This document shows, piece after piece, positions 11,803-38,032 of a DNA stretch of 64,000 bases (position 1 is the stretch's first letter; the number at the start of each line of letters is the position of its first letter). Both the position numbers and the translations under genes were made by a program. Under the pieces are notes generated by a model. It was not told the DNA's origin, searched no databases, and saw only the letters and a program-made list of their open reading frames with translations. Source of the DNA: an uncultured archaeon (GTDB lineage Archaea > Thermoplasmatota > Poseidoniia > MGIII > CAYLMJ01); the NCBI GenBank assembly GCA_964384995.1, contig CAYLMJ010000003.1, positions 25,007 to 89,006 of the forward strand. The letters are read 5' to 3'.

Positions 11803-11990
11803 AACTCGGAGCCAACTCGGAGCCAACTCGAAGCTACCTCGAAGCTACCTCGAAGCTTCTACGAAGGAACACCGAAGCTACAACGAACCTATACCGAAGG
11901 AACACCGAAGCCACAGTATAGGGCGAGTATAGGCTGAGTATTAGACGAGTATAGGATGAGTATTGGACGAGTATGGGGGAAGTATGGGAA
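11803..11990. repeat. Composite short-period tandem repeat tract upstream of the ELWxxDGT protein gene
   Basis: The tract contains aactcggagcc x2, then aactcgaagct, acctcgaagct x2, cgaaggaacaccgaagc x2, and about six 10-11 bp units of the form gagtatRGGNY. Confidence 0.6.
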
Positions 11991-21512: not shown

Positions 21513-21558
21513 GGGGACAGGGGATAATAGAGGGGATTCCCGAGGCTGATTTTAATAG
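21513..21558 (+). promoter_or_regulatory. Shared promoter element copy 1: ggggacaggggataatagaGGGGATTCCC, then 9 nt, then TTTAATAG, upstream of the pilin-like gene
   Basis: Same architecture as the copies at 22153, 25561 and 32139: a G-rich palindrome of GGGGAyTCCC type with a TATA-like box 8-9 nt downstream. Confidence 0.5.
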
Positions 21559-21588
21559 TATCAGACGCAACCGATATATGGTGTAAAG

Positions 21589-22095
21589 ATGACCGAACTG
21601 GATTTGAAGAAGGATAGCAACGCAAGATCGGCAGTGATCGCCGTCGTCGCAATGATGCTCATCGCCTTGAGCCTTGCAGGCCTGTTGTATACTTGGAGCT
21701 CAAGCTTTCTGGAACAGGGTGAGGCGGCGCCCATAATCCAAATGGACTGCTCCAAGGACGCCAATGGCAACTACCGTTGCGTGGTCATCAAGGTCAGCAA
21801 GAGCTACTCCATGAAGGGAGGCACCTACTCTTTCTTCCTGAAGGATGAGACCGGTCTATCGAAGATGTTTGGACCATTGTACGAGATATACTGTTTTCGT
21901 TATGGCGACGGCAAGGGCGTGGTGTATGCCGATTACAACCTCGACACCCGCCTGAACGCAGGGGATGTATTCTACATATATCCCGATGAACCCGGCTCGC
22001 CCTTGGAAGGTATCGTTGACATGGATGATTACAAGCTGGAGATCAAATACAACATCACCGACAGCACCGTCGGCAGTTTCAAGCTAGGTGGTTAG
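21589..22095 (+). CDS. Pilin-like secreted protein with a class-III (type IV prepilin-like) signal-peptide-like N-terminus (A1)
   Basis: N-terminus MTELDLKKDSNARSAVIAVVAMMLIALSLAGLLYTW: charged, then a hydrophobic helix. The C-terminal domain ...CVVIKVSKSY...YSFFLKDETGLS...YKLEIKYNITDSTVGSFKLGG is paralogous to the C-terminus of ORF 32231..34009. Confidence 0.55.
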   Translation: MTELDLKKDSNARSAVIAVVAMMLIALSLAGLLYTWSSSFLEQGEAAPIIQMDCSKDANGNYRCVVIKVSKSYSMKGGTYSFFLKDETGLSKMFGPLYEIYCFRYGDGKGVVYADYNLDTRLNAGDVFYIYPDEPGSPLEGIVDMDDYKLEIKYNITDSTVGSFKLGG

Positions 22096-22152
22096 TTCAA
22101 CCCAGTCGAGAGCCCCCAGAAGTTGAACAAACGCCACCCAAAAGAGGGGAAT

Positions 22153-22192
22153 AGGGGAGTTTTTGGGGACTTCCCACAGAGGTAATATATAG
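22153..22192 (+). promoter_or_regulatory. Shared promoter element copy 2: AGGGGAGTTTTTGGGGACTTCCC, then 8 nt, then AATATATAG
   Basis: Sits 30-70 nt upstream of the ATG at 22224. Confidence 0.55.
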
Positions 22193-22223
22193 AAAAGCTG
22201 CCAAAGTATAATTGGTTGATCAA

Positions 22224-25200
22224 ATGAATGGAGCCTCCAGACTCACCATTCGCTCGCCCGGGTTTCTTCTCCTTTTCTCTTTGCTGGCGGGTGTGGTGGG
22301 CTCTGAATATGGTGGTTCCCGAGGTCACCAGAGGGGTTATGCACAACCATCCACAAGAGGCTCAGGTGAAGCATCGAATGAAAAGGCCTCCCGACCCTGG
22401 CCGGCCTCAGAGCTCCGCCGCTGGCCCATTGAACGATTGATGAAACGGGCCCTGGAACTGGAACGCTCCGCTCCCCGCAAGGCGCTGATGCTCTACTATC
22501 ACCTGACCGAGCGCTCGACCATGGTCCTGCGTCGTTCCATGCGGCTCTTTGCCATCATCGTGTCGGCCTACAGTCTCATCTTCTCCATCTTCTTGAACCT
22601 GGGCCTGTCGATATTCTTCTTCATATCTCTCGTCGGAGCCTGCCTCTACCATCCCCGGACCAAAGTGGATCGCAACCTGGGTTACCTGGCCCAGCTGGGC
22701 ATCGCCCGCTGTTACATGCTTCTGGGAGCTCCCTACAAGGCCTATCGCTACCTCGAGGTGGCCCGGGTGGAGAGCCCGCCCCGCCTCAAGGCCCTGCACG
22801 AGTCCCTCCTGGCCATCATCCGCGGCCGGCGCAAGCAGGCCCTGGCCCATCTCGATCGGGCTCGAGAACGCCACAACGATCTTCGCACCTGGGGTCTCGC
22901 CTGGCCCTACTACCGCTCCTCGGCCACCAACACCGGAAAACTGATGGGAGCCATGAAGCCGGGCGCAACATCTCGCAGTGAGCAAGCCAAGAAGGGAACC
23001 TCAACTGGCGTGGACGCGAGGCCGGTACGACACCATCGCGAGCGGGCGGTTTCAGGGAATGCTCATCAGATCCAGTGCATTCACAAGGGTTCGGCCCCCA
23101 CCAAACATCAGCTGTTGAAGGAGGCCTTCCGGCTGGAGCCAACCAAGCCCCATTCGGCCATCTACCTCTACAACCAGGTGGGTCTGAAATCCGAACGGGC
23201 CCTGCGCAAGCTGGCGCTCCTGTTCCTGCTCATCCTGATCCCCCTGACCCTGGACAGCGTCTGCTTCATCTTCGTCATCCTCAGCCTGGTCATCGTGCTC
23301 CTGATATACGGCGAGCCCCACCGCTTCGTGGTGGCCCGGGAACTGGCACCCCTGGGAGCGGCTCGATGCTACCTGCGCACCGGTCAGACCAACCAGGCCA
23401 ACCGTCGTCTGAACCAGGTCTTCAAACGCCGCCTCCCCTACCTGCGTCCCCTCTACAATGCCACGGTCTCCATCGGGGCCGGGCGCAACGATCAGGTGGA
23501 ACACTACCTGAAGAGGTCCCCGCTGTACAATCTCAGCAAGGCGAGCCAGTTCTACTATCGCAGCTCCCTGGAGCTGACCCGGCGGTTGAGCAAGGACCTG
23601 GCGGTCGAGAACTTCGACGTGGCCACGAAGAGCCCGCAGGATGAGCGCTGGAGAAAGCCGGCGCAGGCCGCAAGGTCCTCACCCGCGGAGTCCAAGACCG
23701 ATGAGCCCACGCCCGAGAAGCCTATACCGGTGGCAAGCAAGCCTCTCACAACCGACGCGGTGAGCTCTGCCGAACCGGTGGTATCGGTGATCAACGATGA
23801 GGGTCATCTGGACCCCACGGTCAAGGCCGGGGAGCCCGACCCCCTGACCTTCACCATCGGCTCCCGGATCTACCATCTTAACCTGGGCGCCGGCACCATC
23901 CAGGCCCGCTTCCCCCACGGGAGGAACTGGCGCCTGAGGGTCCAGTTCGACCGCTCCACCGAGATCCACGATGTCATCTCCAACTACCTCACCCCCATGG
24001 GGAAAGCGACCGCCGTCGAACCCCCTTCCAAGCCCGAAGGTGTGGTCGCCAGGTTCGCCGGACCTCCCGGGGTACGCCCCATCGCGGATCGCAACCTGCG
24101 TCCGGTCCTGCCCTTTGCCTCGCCTGTCACCCCCAACGCGGCCATGGCGTCGCGACCCCTTCCCGCTCCGATCCCGGTCCAGGCCTCCTCTGCTGGTCAA
24201 CCCGCCCCCCGAGTACCCCACCGGGAAGTCCTGCAGGAGCCCTACCATGTGGAATGGATGGATCTGATAACTGTGGAGGCCAGCGGGACCCCCGACCTTG
24301 AAGATGAAATCACAACCGAGCCCGAGCCCGTACAGGTGTCCGAACCCGAACCAGCCTCTCAGCCTGAGCTCCAACAGGAGTCCCAACCAGACCCCCAACC
24401 GGAGTCCCAACCAGACCCCCAGCCATCTGCCCCACCGGTATCAGCCACTGAGGGATCTGCCGAGGCAAACCACCCCAGCTCATGGCCGGTCCAGTGGGTC
24501 GATGCCGAGGTGGATGACCGGGTGGCCGAGCTCGACCAGCGCCTCGCCGAGCTGACCCAGCTGGTCCTTGAGCCCAAGGATGAACCGGACCCAGCTCCCA
24601 CTCCTGCCTCAGCCCCCGAAGCGACCCAAGTGGAGGTGGAGGCCCAACTCTCCCATCGACAGGCTCAGGTGCTCTACCTGGTCCGGGTCAGGAACCTTTC
24701 ATCCCGCCCCATCCTCGATGTGAAGGTGAAGCTTCATCTTGAGGGTCTTCAATTCAAAGTGGTGCAGGAGGCTCCCAACCAAAACTCCCTGGCTCCAGGA
24801 GGTTCAGGCAAGTTCCTCTACCTGCTGGAGCCCACCACCGAGGGAGCCAATGGCACCCTCAAGGCCGACCTCAGCTACATCGACCATCAGGGCGGCATGA
24901 CCGTGGAACAGCCCATCGAGGCCCTTGCCACCGGGATAGTGTGGCCCAGGCTGTCCGATATGAGGACCGACCGCAAGTGGCGCGAGGTCACCCGGGGGCT
25001 CGTATCCCACAAGGAGCGCTTCGACGGCGCTCCCCTGCCGCCGGGCCTCCTGTTCGAGCTGGTCTGCCGCATCCTGGGCGATCTCAACCTGCGCTCGCGC
25101 AAGCCCAAGCTCATCGAGACCTCCTCGTTCTATTCAGGCCGGGCACGATTCATGGCCCAGGATGAGGCTGGCAGATCCTGCGCGGTCCAGGCCGAGGTGG

Positions 25201-25427
25201 TGGGCGGCCCCCTGCGGACCCGTCTTCTGCTCAGGGTCTACGCCCCCTGCGAGGCCTCGGTGGCGGGACTCTATCATCTGGTGCGGGAGGAGCTGACCCT
25301 GCGCCTGGAGGTGGGCGAGGCCTCCGACCCGGTGGTCTACCAGGTCAACGGCGACTTCGTCGAGGGCTCCAAGACCGAGGTGCGCGACTCGGTGGTCAGC
25401 CGCTGGGCGGCCAACTCCGACGCGTAG
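22224..25427 (+). CDS. Large membrane protein B1: duplicated TM-hairpin module, long disordered Pro/Glu-rich linker and the conserved C-terminal cytoplasmic module shared with B2 and B3
   Basis: Two copies of a helix plus two-TM hairpin plus (E)LAPLGxARCY(L/M) module are present. The C-terminal approximately 330 aa aligns with the C-termini of ORFs 25631..27952 and 28907..32059 (...EVVGGPLRTRLLLRVYAP...LRLEV...VYQVNGDFVEGSKTEVRDSVVSRW). Confidence 0.7.
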   Translation: MNGASRLTIRSPGFLLLFSLLAGVVGSEYGGSRGHQRGYAQPSTRGSGEASNEKASRPWPASELRRWPIERLMKRALELERSAPRKALMLYYHLTERSTMVLRRSMRLFAIIVSAYSLIFSIFLNLGLSIFFFISLVGACLYHPRTKVDRNLGYLAQLGIARCYMLLGAPYKAYRYLEVARVESPPRLKALHESLLAIIRGRRKQALAHLDRARERHNDLRTWGLAWPYYRSSATNTGKLMGAMKPGATSRSEQAKKGTSTGVDARPVRHHRERAVSGNAHQIQCIHKGSAPTKHQLLKEAFRLEPTKPHSAIYLYNQVGLKSERALRKLALLFLLILIPLTLDSVCFIFVILSLVIVLLIYGEPHRFVVARELAPLGAARCYLRTGQTNQANRRLNQVFKRRLPYLRPLYNATVSIGAGRNDQVEHYLKRSPLYNLSKASQFYYRSSLELTRRLSKDLAVENFDVATKSPQDERWRKPAQAARSSPAESKTDEPTPEKPIPVASKPLTTDAVSSAEPVVSVINDEGHLDPTVKAGEPDPLTFTIGSRIYHLNLGAGTIQARFPHGRNWRLRVQFDRSTEIHDVISNYLTPMGKATAVEPPSKPEGVVARFAGPPGVRPIADRNLRPVLPFASPVTPNAAMASRPLPAPIPVQASSAGQPAPRVPHREVLQEPYHVEWMDLITVEASGTPDLEDEITTEPEPVQVSEPEPASQPELQQESQPDPQPESQPDPQPSAPPVSATEGSAEANHPSSWPVQWVDAEVDDRVAELDQRLAELTQLVLEPKDEPDPAPTPASAPEATQVEVEAQLSHRQAQVLYLVRVRNLSSRPILDVKVKLHLEGLQFKVVQEAPNQNSLAPGGSGKFLYLLEPTTEGANGTLKADLSYIDHQGGMTVEQPIEALATGIVWPRLSDMRTDRKWREVTRGLVSHKERFDGAPLPPGLLFELVCRILGDLNLRSRKPKLIETSSFYSGRARFMAQDEAGRSCAVQAEVVGGPLRTRLLLRVYAPCEASVAGLYHLVREELTLRLEVGEASDPVVYQVNGDFVEGSKTEVRDSVVSRWAANSDA

Positions 25428-25560
25428 GCCGAGCAAACGTCTCTCCTTCCCCTCCTCTTGCCCTCACTCCTGCTCTTGGCCCTGCTTGTGCAAATGCCTG
25501 TTCGATGGGTTGCGAACCCGGGTCATTCACCCCAAGAGAATGCTGGCTGAGGGATGGGAT

Positions 25561-25600
25561 AGGGGAGTATTGTGGGACTTCCCCCATTCTGCATATATAG
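25561..25600 (+). promoter_or_regulatory. Shared promoter element copy 3: AGGGGAGTATTGTGGGACTTCCCCC, then 7 nt, then ATATATAG
   Basis: Sits about 30 nt upstream of the ATG at 25631. Confidence 0.55.
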
Positions 25601-25630
25601 ACCCAGACCAAACCATCTATCGGTGTAAGG

Positions 25631-27952
25631 ATGACGAGGTCTCCCGGACTCATTGTATCGTTCCTGTTTTTACTGATCGCAACCCAGCTCATGCTCGCCC
25701 CGGCCTTTGTGGCTGGGGATGATCATCCATCCGTGGATGTGGAGCTGGACCAGGATATGGAGGAAGTGGGCAACCAGCCTCCCATTGCCGTCATCACCCA
25801 TGTCTTCCGCTCCCGGGTCAATTTCAGCGAGAGCGTGGTGTTGCGGGGAATGGGCGTCGACAACGATGGCTACATCATCCAGTATCGCTGGTGGTCCGAC
25901 CTCGATGGGAATCTGTCCTCGGCCTCGGGGGAGGTGGTATTCGATGATCTTTCCGTGGGAGAGCATGTCATCTCCTTCGCGGTCAAGGACCAATTGGACA
26001 ACTGGTCCCAACCCGACCAGGTGAATGTGACCGTCATGCCTCGAGTGGTTCCATCGGTCACCCATATCCGTCACTATCCCTACTATGTCAAGGTTGGGGA
26101 GGGGGTCCGGTTCTATGCCTACACCAACCCCTCCGACCCATCGATCCAGCGATACAAGTGGGACCTGGAAGGCGATGGTCTCTGGGACAGCCTCACCGGC
26201 TCCGACAACATCTACTACCGCTACACCACCTCCGGACACTACTGTCCCACGGTCATGGTGATGGACGAGGATGGCCAGTGGTCTGAGCCCTACCATGTCA
26301 GCCTGCAGGTGCGGCCCCAATCGTATCATGAGCGTGAAGGAGAGAGCGAGGAGGAGGCCGCGCTGGGTGGACTATGCCTGCTCTTCCTGGTCGTCGTTGT
26401 GCCCCTCGCCACCTACAAGTGGGGTGCAAAGCGCCAGCGAAAGCGATGTCAGGACAAGGGTCATCAGGCCGCGACCAAGACCAAGCAGGACCCGGTGAAG
26501 TTGATGAACGAGGCCTTGGCCCTGGAGGCTCAGGACCCCAACCGGGCCCTGCCACTCTTTAGAGCCGCCAACCAGAAACGGTCCGATGTGCCCGCCTGTT
26601 GTGGGATCATCACGGTCCTCATGATCTTACTGCTGGTGCTCATCCCTCATCCCATCTTCTTCATCGGCGTGGTCCTGGGCATGTGCGCCTGCCTGCTGGC
26701 CACCGAGAACCCTACTCGCAAAAGCGCCCGGGAGCTGGCGCCTCTGGGCGTTGCCCGCTGCTACCTGCGCTCCGATGCACCCGGACACGCTCTGGGGATC
26801 CTGCGCAAGACCAACGGGCTCAACCCGTTCTACCTAGACAACCTCTACGCCGCCACCCGCTCCCTGGCCAGGGGCAACCGCAACCGGGCCAGGTACTTCC
26901 TGGGCCGGGCCTACCGCATCCCACGCCCCAACGGACCGGCCTTCTACTACCTCTCCCTGGGCCTGACCCAGACCCTCATGGAATGGCAGATGCAGAGAAA
27001 GCTCTCTGCCTCCAAGAAGGCCAGGAAGACCGGGAGGACCGACGAGGAGACCCGTTCGCGAAAGAAGTACAAGGTCGTGACGAACAAGGAGCGGCCCAAG
27101 AAGGAGGGCGACAAGATGGAGGGGGAGCCGGTCATGTCCGCAAAGGACAAAGGACCCGCTACCTCCAAGTATCTTCTGAGCTCCGAGCCCCGTGCCGTTC
27201 CGACCAAGATCGATGACGCTTCCCAGGAGCCCAAGCCAAGGCCAGAACCGGAGCCAGCTCAGAGCTCGGAGAGCTCACCGGCCGCCCCCGAACCGGCCGT
27301 GACCGCCCGCCCCGCACCTCAGGCTAAGGCTGTCGTCCCGCCCCCGACCGGGACACCCTCCTCCTCAACATCATCATCAACGCCGGCGGTCTTCTCAACT
27401 GTATCACATTCCATTCCCCCCTCCTCAGCTGAAGCCTCCCCGACCGTCGCCGACACCTCCCGCAAGTGGCGTTCGGCCCGCTCGGGCTCGGTCTGGCGCC
27501 AGAGCCGCTTCGAGGGGCTGACCCTGGCCCCCTCGGCCCTGATGGAACTGGTGGAATGGGTGATGGAGGGGCTCGATCTCGAGCGGATCAAACCCTCGGT
27601 GACCCAGGTCCCGGGCCACTTCATCGGCCTGATACGGTACTTCGCCCATGATCACGAGGGTCGACCCCACGGGGTCCAGCTCGAGGTCATCGGCGGGCTC
27701 AACCGCACCCGCCTGCTGATCCGGGTCTACGCCCCCGATGACAAGGCTCTGGAGGAACTCCACGCCCTGGTGCAGGAGGAGCTCTCCCTGCGCCTGGAGG
27801 TGGCCACTCCGGCGGCCTCACCTGCAGCCTCACCCGCAACCTCACCGACCGACACCCCGGTCCAGAAGGTCTCCGGTGACTATGTCTGCGGCTCCAAGAC
27901 CGAGGTCAAGGACTCGGTGGTCAGCCGCTGGGGCCGCCCCGTCACTGGTTGA
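25631..27952 (+). CDS. Large type-I membrane protein B2: signal peptide, PKD-like ectodomains, a single TM-hairpin module and the conserved C-terminal cytoplasmic module
   Basis: Signal peptide MTRSPGLIVSFLFLLIATQLMLAPAFVAG and PKD-like motifs (DNDGYIIQYRWWSDLDG). The ELAPLGVARCYL module is present. The C-terminus ...LEVIGGLNRTRLLIRVYAP...LRLEV...VQKVSGDYVCGSKTEVKDSVVSRW matches B1. Confidence 0.7.
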   Translation: MTRSPGLIVSFLFLLIATQLMLAPAFVAGDDHPSVDVELDQDMEEVGNQPPIAVITHVFRSRVNFSESVVLRGMGVDNDGYIIQYRWWSDLDGNLSSASGEVVFDDLSVGEHVISFAVKDQLDNWSQPDQVNVTVMPRVVPSVTHIRHYPYYVKVGEGVRFYAYTNPSDPSIQRYKWDLEGDGLWDSLTGSDNIYYRYTTSGHYCPTVMVMDEDGQWSEPYHVSLQVRPQSYHEREGESEEEAALGGLCLLFLVVVVPLATYKWGAKRQRKRCQDKGHQAATKTKQDPVKLMNEALALEAQDPNRALPLFRAANQKRSDVPACCGIITVLMILLLVLIPHPIFFIGVVLGMCACLLATENPTRKSARELAPLGVARCYLRSDAPGHALGILRKTNGLNPFYLDNLYAATRSLARGNRNRARYFLGRAYRIPRPNGPAFYYLSLGLTQTLMEWQMQRKLSASKKARKTGRTDEETRSRKKYKVVTNKERPKKEGDKMEGEPVMSAKDKGPATSKYLLSSEPRAVPTKIDDASQEPKPRPEPEPAQSSESSPAAPEPAVTARPAPQAKAVVPPPTGTPSSSTSSSTPAVFSTVSHSIPPSSAEASPTVADTSRKWRSARSGSVWRQSRFEGLTLAPSALMELVEWVMEGLDLERIKPSVTQVPGHFIGLIRYFAHDHEGRPHGVQLEVIGGLNRTRLLIRVYAPDDKALEELHALVQEELSLRLEVATPAASPAASPATSPTDTPVQKVSGDYVCGSKTEVKDSVVSRWGRPVTG

Positions 27953-28802
27953 TCGGGGCCAGACCAGAAAGGGCTTCTTCCTCCACCGGTCCCAGCCTGG
28001 CCGGCACCATGAGGGTGTGAGGCGGAGACCCGAACTCCCGTTCGATCAGTTCATCAGCCTTGCCGCAGGCCACCAGCGGGTCGGACCAGCCCGCCCGGGC
28101 CACCACCACCGCCAGATCATCCTCCTTCAGGGGTCCCGAAGGGCCGGTCAACAGCTCCAGACCTTGGTTAGCGGTCATGGCCTCCGGAGACCGAGTGGGG
28201 TCGTCGGCCCGGATGTCCAGGAGCACCAGCGTGTGCAGGTCGGCGGCCAGGTTGGCCCGCACCATCTCCAGGGGACTGGAGGGGGCCTTGCCCGTTCCGT
28301 CGGGCAGGACCAGGGTGACGGTGCGGCCGAAGCGGTAGAAGTCGAGGCCGGCCATCCCCGGAGCAGTGGTCAGGATGGAGGTGTTGGCCACCAACGAACA
28401 TTCGATGCCAGCCTGCCGGGCTTCGGTCCGCAGGGTCGAATGGGTCGTGGCGCTCAGGGGGTCGCCTCCCACCAGCAGCACCGTCGGCCCCCTTCGGGCC
28501 GCCTCTAGCAGAAGGCCTCCCTCCTCGACATAGCATCTTGGCAGAACCACCAGCGATTCCCGGGCCTGATCCAGCAAGCGTTCAACGGGAGGTTCTGCGG
28601 GTGAGCCATCAAGGGAGGCGGGCGGCGCGGGCTCCAGATGGAGACTCCGTCCATGTCTGCTGGCCAGTCGCTCAAGGCTTCCAGGAGGCAGAAGGGTGGT
28701 GTAGGTCTCGGCGAGGAGGAATTGGGTCTCTTCTATGAGCCTCTCCCCCTTCAGGGTCAGGTCATTTTCCCCGCCCAGGCCCAGGCCGACCAGTGAGAGC
28801 AT
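27942..28802 (-). CDS. dphB: Diphthine synthase (EF-2 diphthamide biosynthesis methyltransferase)
   Basis: N-terminus MLSLVGLGLGGENDLTLKGERLIEE...AETYTT and ...VGGDPLSATTHSTL..., a tetrapyrrole-methylase fold. Start set at the ATG at 28802; the 3' end overlaps B2 convergently by 11 nt. Confidence 0.8.
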   Translation of the reverse strand: MLSLVGLGLGGENDLTLKGERLIEETQFLLAETYTTLLPPGSLERLASRHGRSLHLEPAPPASLDGSPAEPPVERLLDQARESLVVLPRCYVEEGGLLLEAARRGPTVLLVGGDPLSATTHSTLRTEARQAGIECSLVANTSILTTAPGMAGLDFYRFGRTVTLVLPDGTGKAPSSPLEMVRANLAADLHTLVLLDIRADDPTRSPEAMTANQGLELLTGPSGPLKEDDLAVVVARAGWSDPLVACGKADELIEREFGSPPHTLMVPARLGPVEEEALSGLAPINQ

Positions 28803-28906
28803 GGGCTTCCAGCGGCAAGGACTATTAAAGTCCAATTAACGACCCTTTACCAAAAGCTCTATATCAAGCATCCAACTTAATTAGGGATTAACCGTGGAGG
28901 ACCTCC

Positions 28907-31900
28907 ATGCGTAACTCCCGTCTACTGGTCGGCCTGGTTGGCCTGGGCCTGCTCATCCTGCTCCTTTCCCTGGTGTCAGAGGTATCCGCCCAGACCAGGT
29001 TGGAGGGCAAGGTCACCGATAGGTTCGATGATGGTGTTCAGATGAAGGGGGTCGTCATCGTTCTCACTAAAGAGGACAATGATACCCTGGTATACAATTT
29101 CACCACGGATGCATCGGGCTATTATTCCGAAGAAAAGATGGAACCAGGGAAGTACACATTCGAGGTTTCCCTTGAAGGATACTGGGACCGCGAGGGTAAG
29201 GTGGAGCTCAGCGAGAATGAAACATTCAAACGCGACTTTCAACTATTGCCCAAGGAGGCCGGCAAGGGACTCTTCTGGGGATTCATCAGTAAGTCCCAGG
29301 ATGGTGGGCCAATCGACCATGCGGCCCTGACCATGGAACGTGTCTCCGGCGGACCGACCCAGATCTATCGAACGACCGTGGAAGAGGATGGCTACTTCTC
29401 CAGACTTTTGAATCCTGGTGGATACGACCTTTGGATCGCTGCCTACGGCTATGAAGCAAAAGCCCACGGGACCGAGCAGGTGAAGGACCAGACACCGACC
29501 CGTTACGATTTCTACCTGGACCACGAGACCTCCACCACCAACACCTTCATGGAGAGCTGGATCAAGGATGACAAGGACAACCGGCTGGCCGGGGTCGGCG
29601 TATCCATCACCAAGGATGGCGGCCGCCAGGCCGATCACTTCACCATCAGCGACGCCAACGGCTGGTGGCAGGTGGGTCTGGACAATGGTGGTTCCTACCA
29701 GGTCGACTACCAGCTGGAGGGCTACGGTCCCGTCCAACAAGTGTTCACAGTCAATGAGGGCCAGACCAACCCCGTCGATGTCCAGGTCCTCATTCTCAGA
29801 CCCGACGCCAGCATCGATGGCATCAACACCGGTCATGCGGGTTTCGCGGTCAAGGGCGAGGACATCGTGTTCAAGGGCTCGGCCAGCGGTGGCAGCGGCA
29901 CCTATACCGATCTCGAGTGGAGCTACACCGAACCCGGAGGCGGTTCCCAGGAAACCCTCGGCAGCGGCGACACCCTGACCAAGAGCATTCCCGTCGGCCT
30001 CCAATCGGGCACCTACTCCATCCACCTCAGGGTTCGCGATGACAACGGTCAGTGGAGCGAGACCGTCAGCCAGGAGCTGGAGGTGTATGGCAGACCCAAG
30101 GTCGAGATAGACCTCCAGGGCACCAACAACCCCACCACCGCCGACACCACCGTCATGGGTACCAACGTCCTATCCAGCGACTTTGGCATCGCCAGCCATC
30201 AGTGGCAGCTCTTCCAGGACTCCATCGACAGCGAGCAGCGCCTGGCCGGGGACCAGGAGAGCTTCGAGATCAGGTGGTTCGATCACGGCCTGGAGCCCGA
30301 TGTCTACATCGTGCGGCTGAGGGTCACCGACGAGTACGGGCTGGTGAGCAACTGGGCCACGCAGGATCTGAGCCTCCATGACCAGAACGAGAACCGCCCT
30401 TACATCGAGGGGCTCAACAAGTACGAGTTCTATCCCGATGACTGGCTGGAGGCCCACGGCAACACACAGGGTGCCGACACCGACGATTTCAAATGGGAGA
30501 TAGACGGCCGGGACGTCAGCCACGACCAGAACCTCCATGTCAACCTGAGGGATCTGGACCTGGACCAGGGCGAACATGAGATAGTCTTCGCCTACCACAA
30601 CAGCGAGGACGGCTGGGTCTACAGCGAATCTCAGCGTTTCTACTACAATGCCGATGAGGGGCCCGAGCCCCAAGAGGTCATCATTCCACTGCTGATCATC
30701 TTCATCATCCTGATGCTCATCCGCCGCCGCCGCAAGCGCAAGAGGCGAGCCAAGAAGGAGGCCAAGAAGGCCGCCAAGGCCCCGGCCATCCCCCGGGCCA
30801 CCGCCGCCCCTGGGCTGAACGTGCCCGAGAGCAGTCTCTACGATGGAGGGGCCTCGCCCTACGCCCCCCGGGCCAGGACCGGCCGGCAAAAGGCGCCGGT
30901 CATCGATCTTGCAAGACCCCGGTCGCAACGACCGCACTTGAAGGGCGAGGGTGCTGCCCCTGTGTTCGGAACCTCCATGCCGGACATCGATGGCAAGGGC
31001 AAGCCCAAGGCTCCCGAGGGCAAGATCGAGCTCAAATCGGCGGTCAATTACGAGAAGGCCAACATCATCTTCAAGGTCAAGGTGGAGAACAACACTGACA
31101 AGCCCATCGCCGAGGTGCGGGTGCGGCCCTTTGCCCCCACCAATCTCTTCAAGGCCGACAAGGAGGAGCGCACCATCGGGCTGATCCAACCCAAGCAGGC
31201 CCAGACGGCCACTTTCAAACTGCGGCCCAGGGGCGAGTGCGGCAACGTCACCCTGCAGGCCAAGGTCACCTACTACGACACCGGCACCAACAAGTACGCC
31301 GAGCAGGACGCCAAGCCCCGGGAGACGGCCATCATCTGCCCCATGCTCAAGTATGAGGACATAGACGAGGATGAGTGGCGCAAGAACGTCTCCAAGATGC
31401 TCAAGGTGGAGGAGACCACCGACAAGATTCCCATGGATGGCGAGTCGCTCTACTCCATGGTCTGCGACGTCTTCCAGGACCAGAACCTGACATCCATCTC
31501 GATGAACGTGGACCGGGGCCGGGTCTTCCGCGGCCGGGCCATGTTCTGGGCCAAGGGGGCTGTGGCGGCCAAGGGCCTGGGCTACGCCGCCCAGATCGAG
31601 GTCATCGGCGGCGAGCTGAAGTCCAAGCTCATCCTGAAGGCCTTTGCCAAGGGCGAAGACTCCCTGGTGGGCTTCTACCACTGCCTGCTGGACGAGATCG
31701 AGAAGCGCACCAGCGTCCGCGACTACCTGGACACCGGCGTCACCGTCCAGCATGTCTACGGTGACATGGTCAAGGGTGGCAAGGTGGACATCAAGGACTC
31801 AGTGCTCCAGCGCTCCAACATCACCACCGAGAGCGCCCCCTCTGGATCCGGCGACGATGACGACCCCTACCTGGACGTCAAGGGCGACAAGGTCGAGGGC

Positions 31901-32059
31901 GGCAAGGTCGAGATCCACGACTCCGTCGTAACCAGGTCCAAGGTGGGCCCCGATGGCGAGGAACGGTTATCGGCCGGCGATGACACCACCGGCAGTCTGG
32001 ACGAGGGCATCGACCAGCTCAGGAAGTTCGTCAAGGACGATGAGAAGGACGAGAAGTAG
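28907..32059 (+). CDS. Large type-I membrane protein B3: signal peptide, carboxypeptidase-regulatory-like and PKD-like ectodomains, TM anchor with a poly-basic stop-transfer, and the conserved C-terminal cytoplasmic module
   Basis: Signal peptide MRNSRLLVGLVGLGLLILLLSLVSEVSA. TM segment IIPLLIIFIILMLIRRRRKRKRR. C-terminal ...IEVIGGELKSKLILKAFAKG... ending in two copies of G(D/K)xV(K/E)GGKV(D/E)I(K/H)DSV(L/V)xRS. A GGAGG sits 8 nt upstream of the ATG. Confidence 0.7.
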   Translation: MRNSRLLVGLVGLGLLILLLSLVSEVSAQTRLEGKVTDRFDDGVQMKGVVIVLTKEDNDTLVYNFTTDASGYYSEEKMEPGKYTFEVSLEGYWDREGKVELSENETFKRDFQLLPKEAGKGLFWGFISKSQDGGPIDHAALTMERVSGGPTQIYRTTVEEDGYFSRLLNPGGYDLWIAAYGYEAKAHGTEQVKDQTPTRYDFYLDHETSTTNTFMESWIKDDKDNRLAGVGVSITKDGGRQADHFTISDANGWWQVGLDNGGSYQVDYQLEGYGPVQQVFTVNEGQTNPVDVQVLILRPDASIDGINTGHAGFAVKGEDIVFKGSASGGSGTYTDLEWSYTEPGGGSQETLGSGDTLTKSIPVGLQSGTYSIHLRVRDDNGQWSETVSQELEVYGRPKVEIDLQGTNNPTTADTTVMGTNVLSSDFGIASHQWQLFQDSIDSEQRLAGDQESFEIRWFDHGLEPDVYIVRLRVTDEYGLVSNWATQDLSLHDQNENRPYIEGLNKYEFYPDDWLEAHGNTQGADTDDFKWEIDGRDVSHDQNLHVNLRDLDLDQGEHEIVFAYHNSEDGWVYSESQRFYYNADEGPEPQEVIIPLLIIFIILMLIRRRRKRKRRAKKEAKKAAKAPAIPRATAAPGLNVPESSLYDGGASPYAPRARTGRQKAPVIDLARPRSQRPHLKGEGAAPVFGTSMPDIDGKGKPKAPEGKIELKSAVNYEKANIIFKVKVENNTDKPIAEVRVRPFAPTNLFKADKEERTIGLIQPKQAQTATFKLRPRGECGNVTLQAKVTYYDTGTNKYAEQDAKPRETAIICPMLKYEDIDEDEWRKNVSKMLKVEETTDKIPMDGESLYSMVCDVFQDQNLTSISMNVDRGRVFRGRAMFWAKGAVAAKGLGYAAQIEVIGGELKSKLILKAFAKGEDSLVGFYHCLLDEIEKRTSVRDYLDTGVTVQHVYGDMVKGGKVDIKDSVLQRSNITTESAPSGSGDDDDPYLDVKGDKVEGGKVEIHDSVVTRSKVGPDGEERLSAGDDTTGSLDEGIDQLRKFVKDDEKDEK

Positions 32060-32138
32060 GCCTTCATCAGCGGGCCGGCCATCCGGTCAGTATCTGCCGC
32101 CTCCTGTTGCAGTATTGCAGTATGATGGAGTTATAGCC

Positions 32139-32185
32139 AGGGGACTGGGGATATTTCGGGGACTTCCCGCGAACCGGCTATATAG
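32139..32185 (+). promoter_or_regulatory. Shared promoter element copy 4: AGGGGACTGGGGATATTTCGGGGACTTCCC, then 9 nt, then CTATATAG
   Basis: Sits about 45 nt upstream of the ATG at 32231. Confidence 0.55.
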
Positions 32186-32230
32186 GCAGAACCGGAGCCA
32201 TCATCGGTCGTCAGACGGCCAGTGAAGCAA

Positions 32231-34009
32231 ATGAAAGACCATGATGAAGATTTCGGTAACGGACAGTACCATACAACAAAGCCTCCCCTGTTGTTTCCCA
32301 ACCTGAGTGAGAACCTAATGAGGTACTTTTCCATCCGGGGATTCATCTCTATCTACTTCGCCTTTTTAGCGTTGATATTCCTGCTCGGGGGTATCGCTAA
32401 CGTAATCCTTTTTTTCATCCTCCCAGAAATGACCTACTTCAATCTCATAATGGGCCTAGCCAGTTTTCATTTAGGCCTTGGTCTGGCTTATCTATCTCGG
32501 TATATCTGGAAAGGAGCGGAAAATGGAGATAGCAAGAAAAAGAAGTGCGAACTGGTCGCATTTAGCTTTGCTTGTGTGATTCTGATATTGGGCACATTTT
32601 TGTGGATTGATAATTATCTGATCAACAATTATATGCGCGACTATGATGACTATTTCCGAATAATAATGCTATTGCCTGTTTTGTTATTGATAGTACTAGT
32701 ATTGGGGTTGCTGATTATCAATAAGATATCCGTCTTTAAAGAGTTATCAAACGCGAAAACATTACGGTGGTTCACGATCCATTTAGTGATATTGTATCCC
32801 TTCATATTCCTTGAATGGTTATTCCTTATTTTCTTTTCCTTTGGAGTAGCTTTTATTATAATTGCGTATACGGGTTTTTGGCTTCGATATGTATTTAAAG
32901 GTAATCTATACAGAAAATCAACAACTATGCCTGTCCAATACTGCGATGATGGGCTGTATTCCTATTTAGCCCTATATGGTGGGTTAAGCTGGATGCCGAT
33001 CTTGGCAACGTTGGCATTGATGATGTGTTTTGGTTTCATGAATTGCTCAACGGTCCTGTTCCATCCGTCCGAGATAGCTGTTATTGTGATTTTTATTACT
33101 CTCTCAATAACACCGCTGTTCATCCTAATGATAAAATTAAGAAATCAATATCATAATCCATATAGATTATTATCAATATGGTTGTGTTCCGTATCACTCC
33201 AATACATCGCTGTTTTAGGTTTGATAATTGATCCAAGGATGGAAGGATTCGGTGGTACGATCAGTACCGTCATCTACTTCACCTGGCCCATCACCTTGCT
33301 GATCCTATCAATATGTTCGAAACTAGCAATTTCCACATGGAAAACAAATGAGAATAGTGTGGAAGGCAGAAATCATTCAAGCCTTTCTATTATACCCGCC
33401 ATAGTCATTTTCCTAGTATTGCCAATTATTTCCATCAATTACGCATACTCAGTGGATTGGCCTGATGAACCATATTATGGTTATGGCCCGCTCATACAAA
33501 TCGAATGTATCGAGAACGACAATGATGATTATGAATGCAAGGTCATCAAGATATCAAGAAACTACGATCTTGAAGCCTACCAGTACTTCCTGAAGGATCG
33601 CACCGGTTTGACCAGCCAGTTCGGTGAGATCGCTCTACAGAACATCAGCGGCTCCTGGCATGGTATAGATGTCACGTGGGACGACGACGGCCCTGCTGAT
33701 ACCAACCAAGGTAACAGCAAGGCCGACCGTGCCAAGGATTCTGGTGGTGCTTACATTGACACCGACCAGGCCCAGATCCGCATAGATGATGTCCAGGCTG
33801 GGACCCAGGGAACCAAGAACAACCAGAAGAGCGAGGGCCGCATCTCGGCATCATTTATGGACAACGACCGCAACGGCAAGCTCACCGCTGGCGATCAGTT
33901 CACCATCAGAGGCAACCAACCATATCATCCAGCCAATGACGGCTGGAGACTGGAGATAAAGTACGACATCTCTGACGACACAATCGGCTCCTTCTTGCTA
34001 GGGGCCTGA
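32231..34009 (+). CDS. Chimeric membrane protein A2: N-terminal polytopic domain of about 10 TM helices with foreign low-GC codon usage, fused to a C-terminal pilin-like extracellular domain paralogous to A1
   Basis: Nucleotides about 32280-33550 are about 38% GC with A/T-rich third codon positions, against about 63% GC nearby. The C-terminus ...ECKVIKISRNYDLEAYQYFLKDRTGLTSQFGEI...WRLEIKYDISDDTIGSFLLGA aligns to A1. Confidence 0.65.
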   Translation: MKDHDEDFGNGQYHTTKPPLLFPNLSENLMRYFSIRGFISIYFAFLALIFLLGGIANVILFFILPEMTYFNLIMGLASFHLGLGLAYLSRYIWKGAENGDSKKKKCELVAFSFACVILILGTFLWIDNYLINNYMRDYDDYFRIIMLLPVLLLIVLVLGLLIINKISVFKELSNAKTLRWFTIHLVILYPFIFLEWLFLIFFSFGVAFIIIAYTGFWLRYVFKGNLYRKSTTMPVQYCDDGLYSYLALYGGLSWMPILATLALMMCFGFMNCSTVLFHPSEIAVIVIFITLSITPLFILMIKLRNQYHNPYRLLSIWLCSVSLQYIAVLGLIIDPRMEGFGGTISTVIYFTWPITLLILSICSKLAISTWKTNENSVEGRNHSSLSIIPAIVIFLVLPIISINYAYSVDWPDEPYYGYGPLIQIECIENDNDDYECKVIKISRNYDLEAYQYFLKDRTGLTSQFGEIALQNISGSWHGIDVTWDDDGPADTNQGNSKADRAKDSGGAYIDTDQAQIRIDDVQAGTQGTKNNQKSEGRISASFMDNDRNGKLTAGDQFTIRGNQPYHPANDGWRLEIKYDISDDTIGSFLLGA

Positions 34010-35784: not shown

Positions 35785-35927
35785 TTTGCCACCGCACTTT
35801 CAGATGATTGGCCTTATTAATATTTACCATTGTTCAAGAACAATAGCTGGACATATATTGTTGGTTGTCCAAAATTGCTGGACGAATGTGCGATAATTAT
35901 TAGTATTTGCTGGACATATCGATTTCC

Positions 35928-36377
35928 ATGTCCCTTGCCCAGATAGCCCCCGACCTGGATGAGCGGGATCGCGCCATACTGAAGTATCTCCATCTCCAGG
36001 GTCGGGCCTCGGTGCGCACCATAGCCCGGTCCGTGGGTCTGCCCCCTTCCACCGTTCACGCCCGCATGGCCCGCCTGGAGCGTCAGGGTGTGGTTACCAA
36101 CTACTCGGTGAACCTGGAACCCCAGCGCCTGGGTCTGGGCTTCGTGGCCTTCATCCTGGTCTCGGGCACCGCCGAGCGTTACCTGGAGGAGGAGTTCCTG
36201 GCCCGCCCCGAGGTGGAGGAGGTGGCCGGCATCACCGGCGAGTACGACCTTCTGCTCAAGGTGCGCCTGCCCAGCCTGGAGGACTTCAACACCTTCCTGA
36301 TGGACTTCCGGGACCGGTACGACGCCTACCTGGACAAGACCATCACCATGGTCCGCACCGCCAACCTGAAAGAATGA
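35928..36377 (+). CDS. lrp: Lrp/AsnC family transcriptional regulator
   Basis: HTH LDERDRAILKYLHLQGRASVRTIARSVGLPPSTVHARMARLERQGVV followed by a RAM domain. First ATG is at 35928; an A/T-rich box about 30 nt upstream suggests a leaderless start. Confidence 0.8.
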   Translation: MSLAQIAPDLDERDRAILKYLHLQGRASVRTIARSVGLPPSTVHARMARLERQGVVTNYSVNLEPQRLGLGFVAFILVSGTAERYLEEEFLARPEVEEVAGITGEYDLLLKVRLPSLEDFNTFLMDFRDRYDAYLDKTITMVRTANLKE

Positions 36378-36431: not shown

Positions 36432-36689
36432 CTAATCCTTCTCCTCTTTCTTGTCCTTGGGAACCGGAGGAGGCGCCGCCGGTCCCGGAGGGGGCGGGGG
36501 CAGGTTGGGCATCTCGGGTATGGAGGGGGTGTGAATCCCCTCGGCTTCCTGGGGGTCTTTCTCTTCCACCTCGAGCCAGCCCCGGCCACTGCAGGAGAGG
36601 CAGGGCATGCCGGCCATCTGCATGACACCTCCGGTCTGGGGAACGGTCTTCCCCGTGCCAAGGCAGGTCGGGCATCGAGTACGATTCAT
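36432..36689 (-). CDS. Small zinc-finger protein (DnaJ-type CxxCxGxG repeats) with a Pro-rich and Lys-rich C-terminus
   Basis: MNRTRCPTCLGTGK...CLSCSGRGW... then PPPPPGPAAPPPVPKDKKEEKD. A palindromic GGCATATATGCC box sits about 55 nt upstream. The start at 36689 is chosen within the longer 36432..36839 ORF and is uncertain. Confidence 0.4.
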   Translation of the reverse strand: MNRTRCPTCLGTGKTVPQTGGVMQMAGMPCLSCSGRGWLEVEEKDPQEAEGIHTPSIPEMPNLPPPPPGPAAPPPVPKDKKEEKD

Positions 36690-36840
36690 GATTGGGACCC
36701 CGGGTAGCAAGCTCGATTTTGGAGGTATTTCAACGGCCACTGGCATATATGCCTTTAGGTTGAGCATAGATTGAGCAAAGTTGGGGAGGCCAGCAGGTGG
36801 GTGGAACGGTGGGATCGAGGGATGATGTGCCCCGTTCATC

Positions 36841-36915
36841 GTTGTAAGATTAAATTTAATGATAGATAATGATAATTAATTATATTTAGTTACAATTAAT
36901 TAAAATTACTTACGC
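36841..36915. promoter_or_regulatory. 75-bp block of about 85% A+T (gataGATAATGATAATtaattata..., three AATTAAT units) in the divergent intergenic region between the zinc-finger gene and the squalene-synthase-like gene
   Basis: Extreme local composition shift in a 63% GC genome; a TTATATATAAT box follows about 40 nt upstream of the ATG at 36989. Confidence 0.4.
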
Positions 36916-36988
36916 CGTCCGACGATGGCCAGACCATACTTATATATAATGACCTCACGTTGTTTTTAGCCCTATTTCAGGAGATACC

Positions 36989-38032
36989 ATGACAAGCCTG
37001 TATGAAGCCATGAAGGACCTGGCCACCGGTACGGTGGGCACCCTCCTGACCGAGAGCCTGGAGTTCTGCCGCTCGATACTGCAGACCGTTTCCCGCTCAT
37101 TCGCCCTGACCATCCCCATGGTCGAGCACAACATCCTGGTCCCCATCATGGTGGGCTACCTGGAGGCCCGCATCCTGGACAGCTTCGAGGACGAGGTGGG
37201 CCGCAAGGAGACCACCATGGAACAGCGCATGCAGGCCATGGACACCATCATGGAGATAATCGACAACCCCGAGTCCGAGACCGCCCAGGAGAAGATCAAG
37301 CACATCTCGGGCATGGCCGGCGACTACATCTCCAACCCCCACTACCAGAAGCTGGTGGAGAACTTCGAATCGGTCGTGCGGGTCCACCGGACCTTCGATC
37401 AGGCCACCAAGGACTCCATGTCGTTCTGGCTCAACGAGATGAACTTCGGCATGAAGAAGTTCCTGGAGCTCTCCATCCGCAACTTCGAGGACCTGGACGA
37501 GTACTGCTACTACGTGGCCGGCACCCCCAGCGGCTTCCTCACCGAGCTCATCATCAACAACTCCGACGACCTGACCCCCGAGCAGGAGGCCACCCTGAAG
37601 CGCACCGAGCGTGATTTCGGCCTCTTCCTGCAGAAGGTCAACATCATCCGCGACTTCCGCGAGGATATCCAGCGCAACGAGAAGATCTTCTGGCCCGACT
37701 GCCTCTTCGAGCCCCACGGCCTGGTGCCCAGGGACATGCTGGACGAGGACAACCGGCAGGTGGCAATGGAGGCCCTGGCGGCCATGCTGACCAACGCCTC
37801 CCAGCATATCCAGCCGGTCAAGGACTACCTCAACGCCATCCCCGAGCAGTACAAGGGCTTTCGCAAGGGCGCGGCGGTCAACTTCCAGATGGGCGTTTCC
37901 ACCCTCAAGGCCATGACCGAGAACGACAAGGTGTTCTTCAGCGACAAGCCGGTGAAGATCGACCACGAGACCCGGGACCGCATCCTGGCCGACCCCCTGG
38001 AAGGCATCCTGACCCCGATGGTCTCGAAATAG
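36989..38032 (+). CDS. Squalene/dehydrosqualene synthase family head-to-head prenyltransferase (farnesyl-diphosphate farnesyltransferase-like)
   Basis: Motifs ...ILQTVSRSFALTIPMV...YLEARILDSFEDE (first Asp-rich region), YCYYVAGTPSGFLTEL and QKVNIIRDFREDIQRNEKIFWP, matching the squalene synthase signature regions. Confidence 0.7.
   Translation: MTSLYEAMKDLATGTVGTLLTESLEFCRSILQTVSRSFALTIPMVEHNILVPIMVGYLEARILDSFEDEVGRKETTMEQRMQAMDTIMEIIDNPESETAQEKIKHISGMAGDYISNPHYQKLVENFESVVRVHRTFDQATKDSMSFWLNEMNFGMKKFLELSIRNFEDLDEYCYYVAGTPSGFLTELIINNSDDLTPEQEATLKRTERDFGLFLQKVNIIRDFREDIQRNEKIFWPDCLFEPHGLVPRDMLDEDNRQVAMEALAAMLTNASQHIQPVKDYLNAIPEQYKGFRKGAAVNFQMGVSTLKAMTENDKVFFSDKPVKIDHETRDRILADPLEGILTPMVSK

What the first reader, a model, noticed from the sequence alone, without database searches (positions are those of the whole stretch)
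21513..32185. Four copies of a conserved promoter architecture: G-rich palindrome (GGGGAyTCCC) plus TATATAG box
The sequence shows AGGGGAgT(a/t)TT(k)T-GGGGACTTCCC, then 7-9 nt, then (A/C)TATATAG upstream of 22224 (B1), 25631 (B2) and 32231 (A2). Upstream of 21589 (A1) there is a variant, GGGGAcAGGGGATAATAGAGGGGATTCCC-N9-TTTAATAG. The GGGGA..TCCCC core is an inverted repeat placed where a BRE-proximal transcription-factor site would be expected in an archaeal promoter. The TATA-like box lies about 30-45 nt before each start. No such element occurs before B3 (28907) or elsewhere in the 64 kb. This implies a dedicated regulon controlled by a dimeric DNA-binding factor.
Basis: seen in the sequence. 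Interest (0 to 1): 0.75.

Follow-up and report, generated by a model that had tools for sequence, protein, structure and literature searches.

The report
Conserved upstream control element of archaeal surface genes
Four genes for pilin-like and membrane surface proteins in an uncultured marine archaeon share a promoter module: G-rich GGGGA repeats just upstream of a TATA box. The module is conserved in three related species, so it is very probably the docking site of an unidentified transcription regulator, which is a real but fairly ordinary kind of element.

Summary
Four + strand sites (21513, 22146, 25555, 32140) share one ungapped register: GGGA-N2-3-GGGGA-N7-GGG(A/G)(C/A)TTCCC-N9-NTWWATAG, followed about 21 nt later by a conserved G and then the start codon. 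Nothing else in the 64 kb window, or in 15 kb beyond its ends, resembles it. A position weight matrix scores the true sites at 35-46 bits and everything else below 13.

The module recurs upstream of orthologous B1, B2 and A2-position genes in three other uncultured archaeal species whose proteins are only 26-57% identical. Across non-orthologous promoter pairs the motif blocks are 88% identical and the positions between them 33%. That pattern indicates selection on a protein-binding site, not a recent duplication.

The element spans about -66 to -39, directly upstream of a non-conserved BRE position. This is where archaeal activator sites (UAS) lie. B3, which lacks the element, has a conserved canonical CCAAAAG-N3-TATA promoter instead.

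The neighbouring Lrp/AsnC gene has a different repeat (GCTGGACRWAT) in its own promoter, so it is a poor candidate regulator.

G-quadruplex, RNA, viral and recombination-site readings were tested or considered and rejected. Verdict: a new, lineage-specific member of a known kind of element, with factor, sign of regulation and full regulon unknown.

The parts
21513..21558 (+). Promoter module of A1. Repeats: R1 GGGGA 21513-21517, R2 GGGGA 21520-21524, R3/R4 GGGGATTCCC 21532-21541 (variant with a 1-nt palindrome spacer). Non-conserved BRE position 21542-21550. TATA-like TTTAATAG 21551-21558.
   Evidence: 34.6 bits, the weakest of the four
21580..22095 (+). Predicted transcription start (conserved G 21580, inferred only) and gene A1 (ATG 21589-22095, 168 aa). 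A1 is an archaeal type IV pilin-like protein.
   Evidence: Homologs carry PF07790 Pilin_N. A1 itself gave no Pfam hit at E<=0.01. The G lies 25-26 nt from the TATA centre in all 12 aligned sites.
22146..22192 (+). Promoter module of B1. Repeats: R1 GGGGA 22146-22150, R2 GGGGA 22154-22158, R3/R4 GGGGACTTCCC 22165-22175. TATA-like ATATATAG 22185-22192. Conserved GGT at 22214.
   Evidence: 41.8 bits. Orthologous sites at L151 16936 and L155 10586.
22224..25427 (+). Gene B1 (1067 aa). It has repeated transmembrane plus TPR-like modules and the conserved B-family C-terminal domain.
25551..25600 (+). Promoter module of B2. Extra GGGA 25551-25554, R1 (T)GGGA 25555-25559, R2 GGGGA 25562-25566, R3/R4 GGGACTTCCC 25574-25583. 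TATA-like ATATATAG 25593-25600. Conserved GGT at 25622.
   Evidence: 43.4 bits. Orthologous sites at L151 13589, L155 7288 and L065 3347.
25631..27952 (+). Gene B2 (773 aa). Signal peptide, PKD ectodomain, transmembrane segments and the B-family C-terminal domain.
28850..28868 (+). Contrast case: the B3 promoter has no GGGGA element. It reads CCAAAAGCTCTATATCAAG, an A-rich BRE-like stretch plus a TATA box, ahead of B3 (28907-32059).
   Evidence: The ACCAAAAG-N2-3-TATA arrangement is conserved in L143 and L161. No matrix hit.
32140..32185 (+). Promoter module of A2. Repeats: R1 GGGGA 32140-32144, R2 GGGGA 32147-32151, R3/R4 GGGGACTTCCC 32158-32168. TATA-like CTATATAG 32178-32185. Conserved GGT at 32206-32208.
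   Evidence: 43.6 bits. Orthologous sites at L151 6648 and L155 705.
32231..34009 (+). Gene A2 (592 aa, alternative GTG start at 32222). It is a polytopic membrane protein whose C-terminal ~200 aa are homologous to A1. The gene has 44% G+C in a 62% G+C window.

Best explanation
Each copy is a complete archaeal promoter with an upstream regulatory site for an unidentified sequence-specific DNA-binding protein.

Relative to the inferred start site (the invariant G), the layout is:
- GGGA at about -66 to -63
- GGGGA at -60 to -56
- an A/T-rich 7-nt spacer
- GGGAC|TTCCC, an inverted GGGA pair, at -48 to -39
- a non-conserved stretch where the TFB-recognition element (BRE) should be, at -36 to -30
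- a TATA box at -29 to -22
- the start site

The most likely mechanism is activation. A multimeric factor occupies the four GGGA half-sites immediately upstream of a poor BRE. It helps recruit TFB and/or TBP, so that A1, B1, B2 and A2 are switched on together. B3 has a canonical BRE/TATA promoter and is expressed independently.

Shown: the anatomy, its statistical non-randomness, its confinement to these promoters, and block-wise conservation across four species.

Inferred: the TATA and start-site assignments, binding by a protein, and positive regulation.
For: 1. Composite motif far above chance and unique in the window. No further site in 15 kb beyond the window ends.
2. Same orientation and fixed register to the TATA-like box and to a conserved G 25-26 nt downstream of the TATA centre, in all 12 sites.
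3. Phylogenetic footprint. The module precedes B1, B2 and A2-position orthologs in L151 and L155 (diphthine synthase, Dph5, 76% and 72% identical; B1 55-57%; B2 48-50%) and a B-family gene in L065 (26-36%).
4. In 54 non-orthologous promoter pairs the blocks are 88% identical, the inter-block positions 33% and the upstream flank 29%. Similarity is therefore confined to discrete blocks rather than spread over a duplicated segment.
5. The BRE position has about zero information content in the motif promoters. The motif-less B3 promoter keeps ACCAAAAG-N2-3-TATA in the window and in the two relatives sampled, L143 and L161.
6. [quoted passage not shown] EarA uses four 6-bp sites immediately upstream of the BRE of the fla promoter (PMC5512572). 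The ups-pili hexanucleotide lies at -44 to -39 (PMC5817253), the same position as TTCCC here.
7. A more distant relative lacking the A and B genes (L157/L158, Dph5 46%) also lacks the motif. Distant pilin homologs have ordinary promoters.
Against: - There are no transcription start, expression or binding data, so the TATA, start-site and activator assignments are inferences.
- The conserved GGT could in some promoters be part of a Shine-Dalgarno-like GGTGA rather than an initiator. In the A2-type promoters, however, it lies 16-25 nt before the start codon.
- The 12 sites come from only four related lineages, and orthologous sites are not independent.
- The motif columns were defined from the same alignment used to measure their conservation.
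- Only about 4% of an assumed ~2 Mb genome was visible, so 'regulon' may mean just one cluster.
- No candidate regulator was identified.
- An upstream position does not exclude a repressor.
Confidence: 0.7

Rival explanations
1. The element is an operator for a repressor or architectural protein. The protein would oligomerise over the GGGA repeats and occlude or distort the adjacent BRE/TATA, keeping the surface-protein genes off until a signal arrives.
For: The conservation data show only that a protein-binding site is under selection, not the sign of regulation. Multiple closely spaced half-sites are compatible with cooperative oligomeric binding.
Against: The element ends at about -39 and overlaps neither the TATA box nor the start site, where most archaeal repressors act (PMC5512572, introduction). 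The BRE position is non-conserved and lacks the A-rich stretch seen in the B3 promoter, which fits activator dependence.
Confidence: 0.15
2. The element is an extended promoter-recognition element read by an alternative general factor (a TFB or TBP paralog, as with TFB3-dependent promoters in Sulfolobales) rather than by a classical regulator.
For: The TTCCC block lies at -43 to -39, matching the -44 to -39 position of the hexanucleotide in the UV-inducible ups promoters (PMC5817253). There is no canonical BRE.
Against: The conserved region extends to -66 with three further repeats, much longer than a BRE extension. No TFB or TBP paralog is encoded in the window.
Confidence: 0.08
3. The copies are relics of duplicated promoter segments, or copies kept alike by gene conversion, and no dedicated factor exists.
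For: The module can be duplicated as a unit. In L151 a second copy with nearly the same BRE-position spacer and TATA box (GCAAACCGGCTATATAGG against GCGAACCGGCTATATAGG) sits inside the A2 ortholog.
Against: Within the window the four copies share 79-97% of block positions but only 23-38% of inter-block positions, about random. Duplication or conversion would give uniform identity. The blocks stay invariant between species whose proteins are 26-57% identical.
Confidence: 0.04
4. The element acts through DNA structure (a G-quadruplex on the non-template strand) or as a transcribed RNA element.
For: There are three to four G runs within 35 nt. Three of the 12 sites (window B2, L065, L155 B2) have four runs.
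Against: Nine of 12 sites have only three G runs, so a canonical intramolecular quadruplex is not a conserved property. The element lies upstream of the TATA box. Rfam gives no match. RNAalifold finds only four invariant pairs and no covariation.
Confidence: 0.03

Closest known systems
EarA binding-site array of the fla (archaellum) operon promoter, Methanococcus maripaludis (PMC5512572)
   Same: Several short (5-6 bp) recognition sequences, four in number, lie immediately upstream of the BRE/TATA of genes for a type IV pilus-like surface structure. The promoter depends on an activator because of a poor BRE.
   Different: The sequence is unrelated and the lineage is different. Here one of the four repeats is inverted, and the same array is reused at four separate promoters of a cluster. 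No EarA homolog or binding was tested.
Upstream hexanucleotide A(N)TTTC of the UV-inducible ups-pili and ced promoters, Sulfolobus acidocaldarius (PMC5817253)
   Same: A short conserved motif at -44 to -39, directly upstream of the BRE, is shared by several independent promoters of pilus genes. The position is the same as TTCCC (-43 to -39) here.
   Different: That motif is a single non-palindromic hexamer found at 214 genes. Here the element is a 28-nt composite found only in one gene cluster within the sequence that could be examined.
TFB-RF1, Ptr2 and ara-box type activation at weak-BRE/TATA promoters (PMC5937170 abstract; PMC5512572 discussion; PMC7408454)
   Same: The site is immediately upstream of a BRE that deviates from consensus. 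The proposed mechanism is recruitment of TFB and/or TBP.
   Different: Those factors and sites were defined experimentally and have different sequences. Nothing here identifies the factor's family.
ArnR/ArnR1 control of type IV pilus surface structures in S. acidocaldarius (PMC6396743, title and abstract)
   Same: Dedicated regulators co-ordinate several type IV pilin-type surface structures.
   Different: No homolog was examined here. The comparison is functional only.
Eukaryotic kappaB site GGGRNWYYCC
   Same: GGGACTTCCC fits the consensus letter for letter. A literature search for the 10-mer returned 46 papers; the top-ranked ones concern kappaB/NFAT5-type sites and none listed concerns an archaeal promoter.
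   Different: No Rel-homology protein is known in archaea (own knowledge, not tested). The conserved unit here is much larger. Treated as coincidence.

Membership tests
Archaeal core promoter (BRE-TATA-initiator) | An A/T-rich ~8-bp TATA box centred about 26-27 nt upstream of the transcription start | tested here: inconclusive
   A conserved NTWWATAG lies 29-32 nt (46 for A2) before the start codon, with an invariant G 25-26 nt downstream of its centre, in 12 of 12 sites. The box resembles other TATA-like boxes in the window, such as CTTTATAAG and TTTTATATAA. No experimental start site exists.
Archaeal core promoter (BRE-TATA-initiator) | [quoted passage not shown] | tested here: not met
   Columns -36 to -30 have about zero information content and no A-rich run. 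The B3 promoter has a conserved CCAAAAG. This is read as a weak BRE.
Archaeal upstream activating sequence (activator site) | [quoted passage not shown] | tested here: met
   The conserved blocks span about -66 to -39 and end 2-3 nt before the BRE position. Criterion taken from PMC7408454 and PMC5512572.
Archaeal upstream activating sequence (activator site) | Bound by a factor and required for transcription | not testable with these tools
   Needs EMSA or footprinting and reporter or in vitro transcription assays.
Archaeal upstream activating sequence (activator site) | Under purifying selection relative to its surroundings | tested here: met
   Orthologous pairs show blocks 79-100% identical against 38-80% between blocks. 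Non-orthologous pairs show 88% against 33%.
   The Lrp/AsnC-ahcY intergenic region carries a different triple repeat, GCTGGACRWAT, at 35846, 35877 and 35909 (3 hits against 0.04 expected), with conserved TGGAC cores in L151. It has no GGGGA element. This is indirect and does not exclude the protein.
G-quadruplex-forming sequence | Four runs of at least 3 G separated by short loops | tested here: not met
   Only 3 of 12 sites have four runs.
Structured RNA / Rfam family | Match to a covariance model, or covarying base pairs | tested here: not met
   The only Rfam hits in the window are two tRNAs elsewhere. RNAalifold gives 4 invariant pairs and 0 compensatory changes.
Mobile-element or viral repeat | Recurrence in viral contigs or at many unrelated genomic places | tested here: not met
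   Viral contigs gave 2 chance hits without a TATA box. Genome contigs gave 74 hits, of which 73 are singletons, nearly all in unrelated bacteria, none with a TATA-like box at the right distance; 1 is a true archaeal site. Metagenome contigs gave 54 chance hits.

The most novel reading that the evidence does not exclude
The module may be a portable, self-contained 'promoter cassette' that this lineage repeatedly places in front of, and even inside, unrelated and partly foreign surface-protein genes.

Observations that fit this reading:
- A2 has 44% G+C in a 62% G+C genome.
- In L155 an unrelated membrane protein occupies the A2 position behind the same promoter.
- In L151 a second copy splits the A2 ortholog into two separately promoted genes.

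Newly acquired surface genes would thereby be wired into one switchable programme run by a factor of a so-far unrecognised type. That factor might even be the cluster's own membrane-anchored B proteins, whose conserved cytoplasmic module ends in a zinc ribbon in three of eight relatives examined.
Probability: 0.1. Interest if true: 0.6.

Novelty: new member of a known kind. Interest (0 to 1): 0.4.

Why it matters
Almost nothing is known about gene regulation in uncultured marine Thermoplasmatota-like archaea. A 45-nt module with invariant blocks, shared by four promoters and by four species, is a ready-made probe.

It can be used to fish for its regulator and to delimit a surface-structure regulon in metagenome-assembled genomes. 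It can also be used to test, in metatranscriptomes, whether pilin-like and B-family membrane proteins are co-induced.

The element adds one more example to the short list of archaeal promoters that pair an upstream site with a weak BRE. It does not change the picture of how archaeal transcription is regulated.

Tried and rejected
1. Metagenome-contig scan with GGGGAN{6,8}GGGRMTTCCCN{9,11}TWWATA. It gave 54 hits and none had the window-like arrangement. The window's own sites are not in that collection, so the scan was uninformative.
2. Genome-contig scan. It gave 74 hits. Of these, 73 are singletons, nearly all in unrelated bacteria, and none has a TATA-like box at the right distance. By my own estimate roughly 35-100 chance hits are expected for about 18 specified bases in 596 Gb. 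Only L065 is real. The source species and the L151 and L155 species are apparently not among the representative genomes.
3. Distant A1 homologs (about 30% identity, low-G+C marine contigs L007, L011, L159). They have ordinary aaag...TTTATATA-type promoters and no motif.
4. B2 C-terminal domain as a word-index query. It gave only one hit. The exhaustive profile search later showed 371 representatives.
5. G-quadruplex, RNA structure, Rfam, and viral or mobile origin. All rejected; see the membership tests.
6. Origin-recognition boxes and Xer/dif-type recombination sites. Considered from memory and rejected. All copies point the same way at a fixed distance from a TATA box and a start codon, no AT-rich unwinding element or orc/cdc6 gene is adjacent, and every contig recovered from several samples shows the same gene order.
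7. The kappaB-site resemblance. Treated as coincidence.
8. The sigma-70 promoter/terminator scanner was not used because the organism is an archaeon.
9. Extending the window by 8.6 kb and 6.8 kb found no further sites.

Full report
**What is in the sequence**

Aligned, they share more than was reported. All four have three direct GGGA/GGGGA repeats and one inverted copy.

From the second repeat to the TATA-like box they align without any gap: GGGGA-N7-GGG(A/G)(C/A)TTCCC-N9-NTWWATAG. The A1 'variant' fits the same register. Its palindrome is 1 nt shorter and its preceding spacer 1 nt longer.

The composite is far beyond chance:
- The triple-repeat pattern occurs 3 times against 0.06 expected.
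- Core plus TATA occurs 3 times against 0.00 expected.
- The 11-mer core alone is not enriched (8 against 17 expected at one mismatch).

A weight matrix of the 29 upstream columns scores the four sites at 34.6-43.6 bits. Nothing else in the window exceeds 13 bits, and shuffled sequence stays below 10. Two look-ups that extend the source contig by 8.6 kb and 6.8 kb beyond the window add no further site. B3 (28907) indeed has no such element.

**The genes and the organism**

A1 (21589-22095) is a 168-aa protein. Its homologs carry the archaeal type IV pilin N-terminal domain PF07790, although A1 itself gave no Pfam hit at E<=0.01.

A2 (32231-34009) is a polytopic membrane protein. Its last ~200 residues are homologous to A1.

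B1, B2 and B3 share a ~280-residue C-terminal module, behind PKD or CarboxypepD_reg ectodomains in B2 and B3 and behind transmembrane segments. This module is absent from Pfam. It has 371 cluster representatives in the exhaustive search, always C-terminal in proteins with variable ectodomains. In three of eight relatives examined it is followed by a zinc ribbon.

Several features identify an archaeon:
- diphthine synthase (Dph5) between B2 and B3
- topoisomerase VI and fibrillarin in the flank
- a T2SSF/PilC-like gene at 5693-6973

The closest named Dph5 proteins are from Marine Group III and 'Thermoplasmatota' assemblies, at only 41-43% identity. The lineage is therefore poorly sampled. Identical contigs occur in several marine metagenomes.

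**Comparative evidence**

A scan of 596 Gb of species-representative genomes with GGGAN{2,3}GGGGAN7GGGRMTTCCC returned 74 places. Of these, 73 are single hits, nearly all in unrelated bacteria, and none has a TATA-like box at the right distance. This is consistent with my estimate of chance for that pattern.

One hit is real. It lies in an uncultured archaeon (L065) and reads GGGGATTGGGGATTGGGGATAATTGTGGGACTTCCC-N9-ATATATAC. The gene behind it is a B-family gene only 26-36% identical to B1 and B2.

I then used Dph5 as a syntenic anchor and recovered the whole cluster from two further species: L151-153 (Dph5 76% identical) and L154-156 (72%). Both carry the module upstream of the B1 ortholog, the B2 ortholog and the A2 position. 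The proteins have diverged to 55-57% identity for B1 and 48-50% for B2. A more distant relative (L157/158, Dph5 46%) lacks both the A/B genes and the motif.

The 12-site alignment shows these conserved blocks:
- GGGA
- (G)GGGA
- GGGaCTTCCC
- TatATAg
- a single invariant G 25-26 nt downstream of the TATA centre

The blocks are separated by positions with almost no information.

| Comparison | Motif blocks | Between blocks | Upstream flank |
|---|---|---|---|
| 54 non-orthologous pairs | 88% | 33% | 29% |
| Orthologous pairs | 79-100% | 38-80% | not summarised |

This is the signature of selection on discrete contact points. A recently copied segment would not look like this. One caveat applies: the block columns were defined from the same alignment, and the four lineages are related.

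**How it most likely works**

I take the invariant G as the start site. That is an inference, supported by its canonical distance from the TATA box. It is also conserved in the A2-type promoters, where it lies 16-25 nt before the start codon and so cannot be a ribosome-binding site.

On that numbering the layout is:
- repeats at about -66 to -39
- BRE position at -36 to -30
- TATA box at -29 to -22

The BRE position is not conserved and lacks the A-rich run. The motif-less B3 promoter, by contrast, keeps ACCAAAAG-N2-3-TATA in the window and in the two relatives sampled, L143 and L161.

[quoted passage not shown] EarA uses four 6-bp sites immediately upstream of the fla BRE (PMC5512572). The ups-pili hexanucleotide lies at -44 to -39 (PMC5817253). 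TFB-RF1 recruits TFB to weak-BRE promoters (PMC5937170).

I therefore favour an activator that occupies the four GGGA half-sites and recruits TFB and/or TBP, co-inducing A1, B1, B2 and A2. The start-to-start spacings are 7-8 bp, 11-12 bp, and an adjacent inverted pair.

My confidence that this is a protein-binding regulatory module of these promoters is about 0.7-0.85. Given that, my confidence that it acts positively is about 0.6.

**The rivals**

- A repressor or architectural operator cannot be excluded by sequence alone.
- Recognition by an alternative general factor is possible. The element is long for that, however, and no TFB or TBP paralog is nearby.
- Duplication without function is contradicted by the block-wise pattern.
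- A G-quadruplex needs four G runs, and only 3 of 12 sites have them.
- An RNA element is unlikely. The block lies upstream of the TATA box, has no Rfam match and shows no covariation.
- Viral or mobile origin finds no support.

**The candidate regulator**

The only transcription-factor gene found in the window is the Lrp/AsnC at 35907-36377. Its divergent promoter region contains its own repeat, GCTGGACRWAT, three times with a 31-32 bp period. That is 3 hits against 0.04 expected in the window. TGGAC cores are kept in L151. No GGGGA element is present there.

If this regulator autoregulates, as many of its family do (own knowledge), its recognition sequence differs from the GGGGA motif.

**Verdict**

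The promoter and regulatory-site interpretation is well supported by comparative evidence. The specific claims (a dimer on a palindrome, Lrp/AsnC as the factor, and a genome-wide regulon) are either too simple, disfavoured or untested.

The motif sequence has no counterpart in Rfam or in the papers the literature searches returned. The kind of element is nevertheless well known. It is a new, lineage-specific member of the archaeal upstream regulatory sites, attached to a cluster of pilin-like and membrane surface proteins. Interest is moderate.

Noticed in passing
window 35846-35919 (also L151 2990-3140): Three direct repeats GCTGGACRWAT with a 31-32 bp period lie in the divergent Lrp/AsnC-ahcY intergenic region. 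They are unique in the window (3 hits against 0.04 expected), and the TGGAC cores are conserved in a related species. This is probably the operator array of that Lrp/AsnC.
   Followed up: partly
L151 5117-6660 (- strand): The A2 ortholog is split. A 99-aa N-terminal fragment ends at a TAG that lies inside a second copy of the promoter module (GGGACTAGGGA). A 359-aa C-terminal ORF starts about 17 nt after that copy's predicted start site. The second copy is a near-exact duplicate of the A2 promoter, including its spacer.
   Followed up: partly
window 32231-34009; L155 3-705: A2 has 44% G+C in a 62% G+C window. In L155 the orthologous promoter drives an unrelated membrane protein. The A2 position therefore looks like a hot spot for gene replacement behind a conserved promoter.
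   Followed up: partly
[not shown]
   Followed up: partly
window 25551-25566; L065 3338-3365; L155 about 7300: The B2-type promoters in three of four species carry an extra upstream GGGA repeat. In L065 the repeats form a 7-nt tandem, GGGGATTGGGGATTGGGGAT.
   Followed up: no
window 11802-11974: A dense array of 11-, 22- and 33-nt tandem repeats (CGAAGC.., AGTATAGGACG) lies between a tRNA gene (11466-11548) and the start of a 1243-aa PKD/beta-propeller protein (11973).
   Followed up: no
window 5693-6973: A T2SSF/PilC-like platform protein gene lies about 15 kb upstream of the pilin-like A1. No ATPase gene was recognised next to it.
   Followed up: no
window 36840-36990: An extremely A/T-rich divergent intergenic region with TTAATTATAA-type repeats lies between a small zinc-ribbon-like ORF (36432-36839, - strand) and the squalene/phytoene synthase gene.
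   Followed up: no
window 28850-28868; L143 about 1500-1530; L161 about 3080-3110: The B3 promoter ACCAAAAG-N2-3-(T)ATA is conserved between the window and the two relatives sampled (L143, L161). It gives a provisional BRE/TATA consensus for this lineage.
   Followed up: partly
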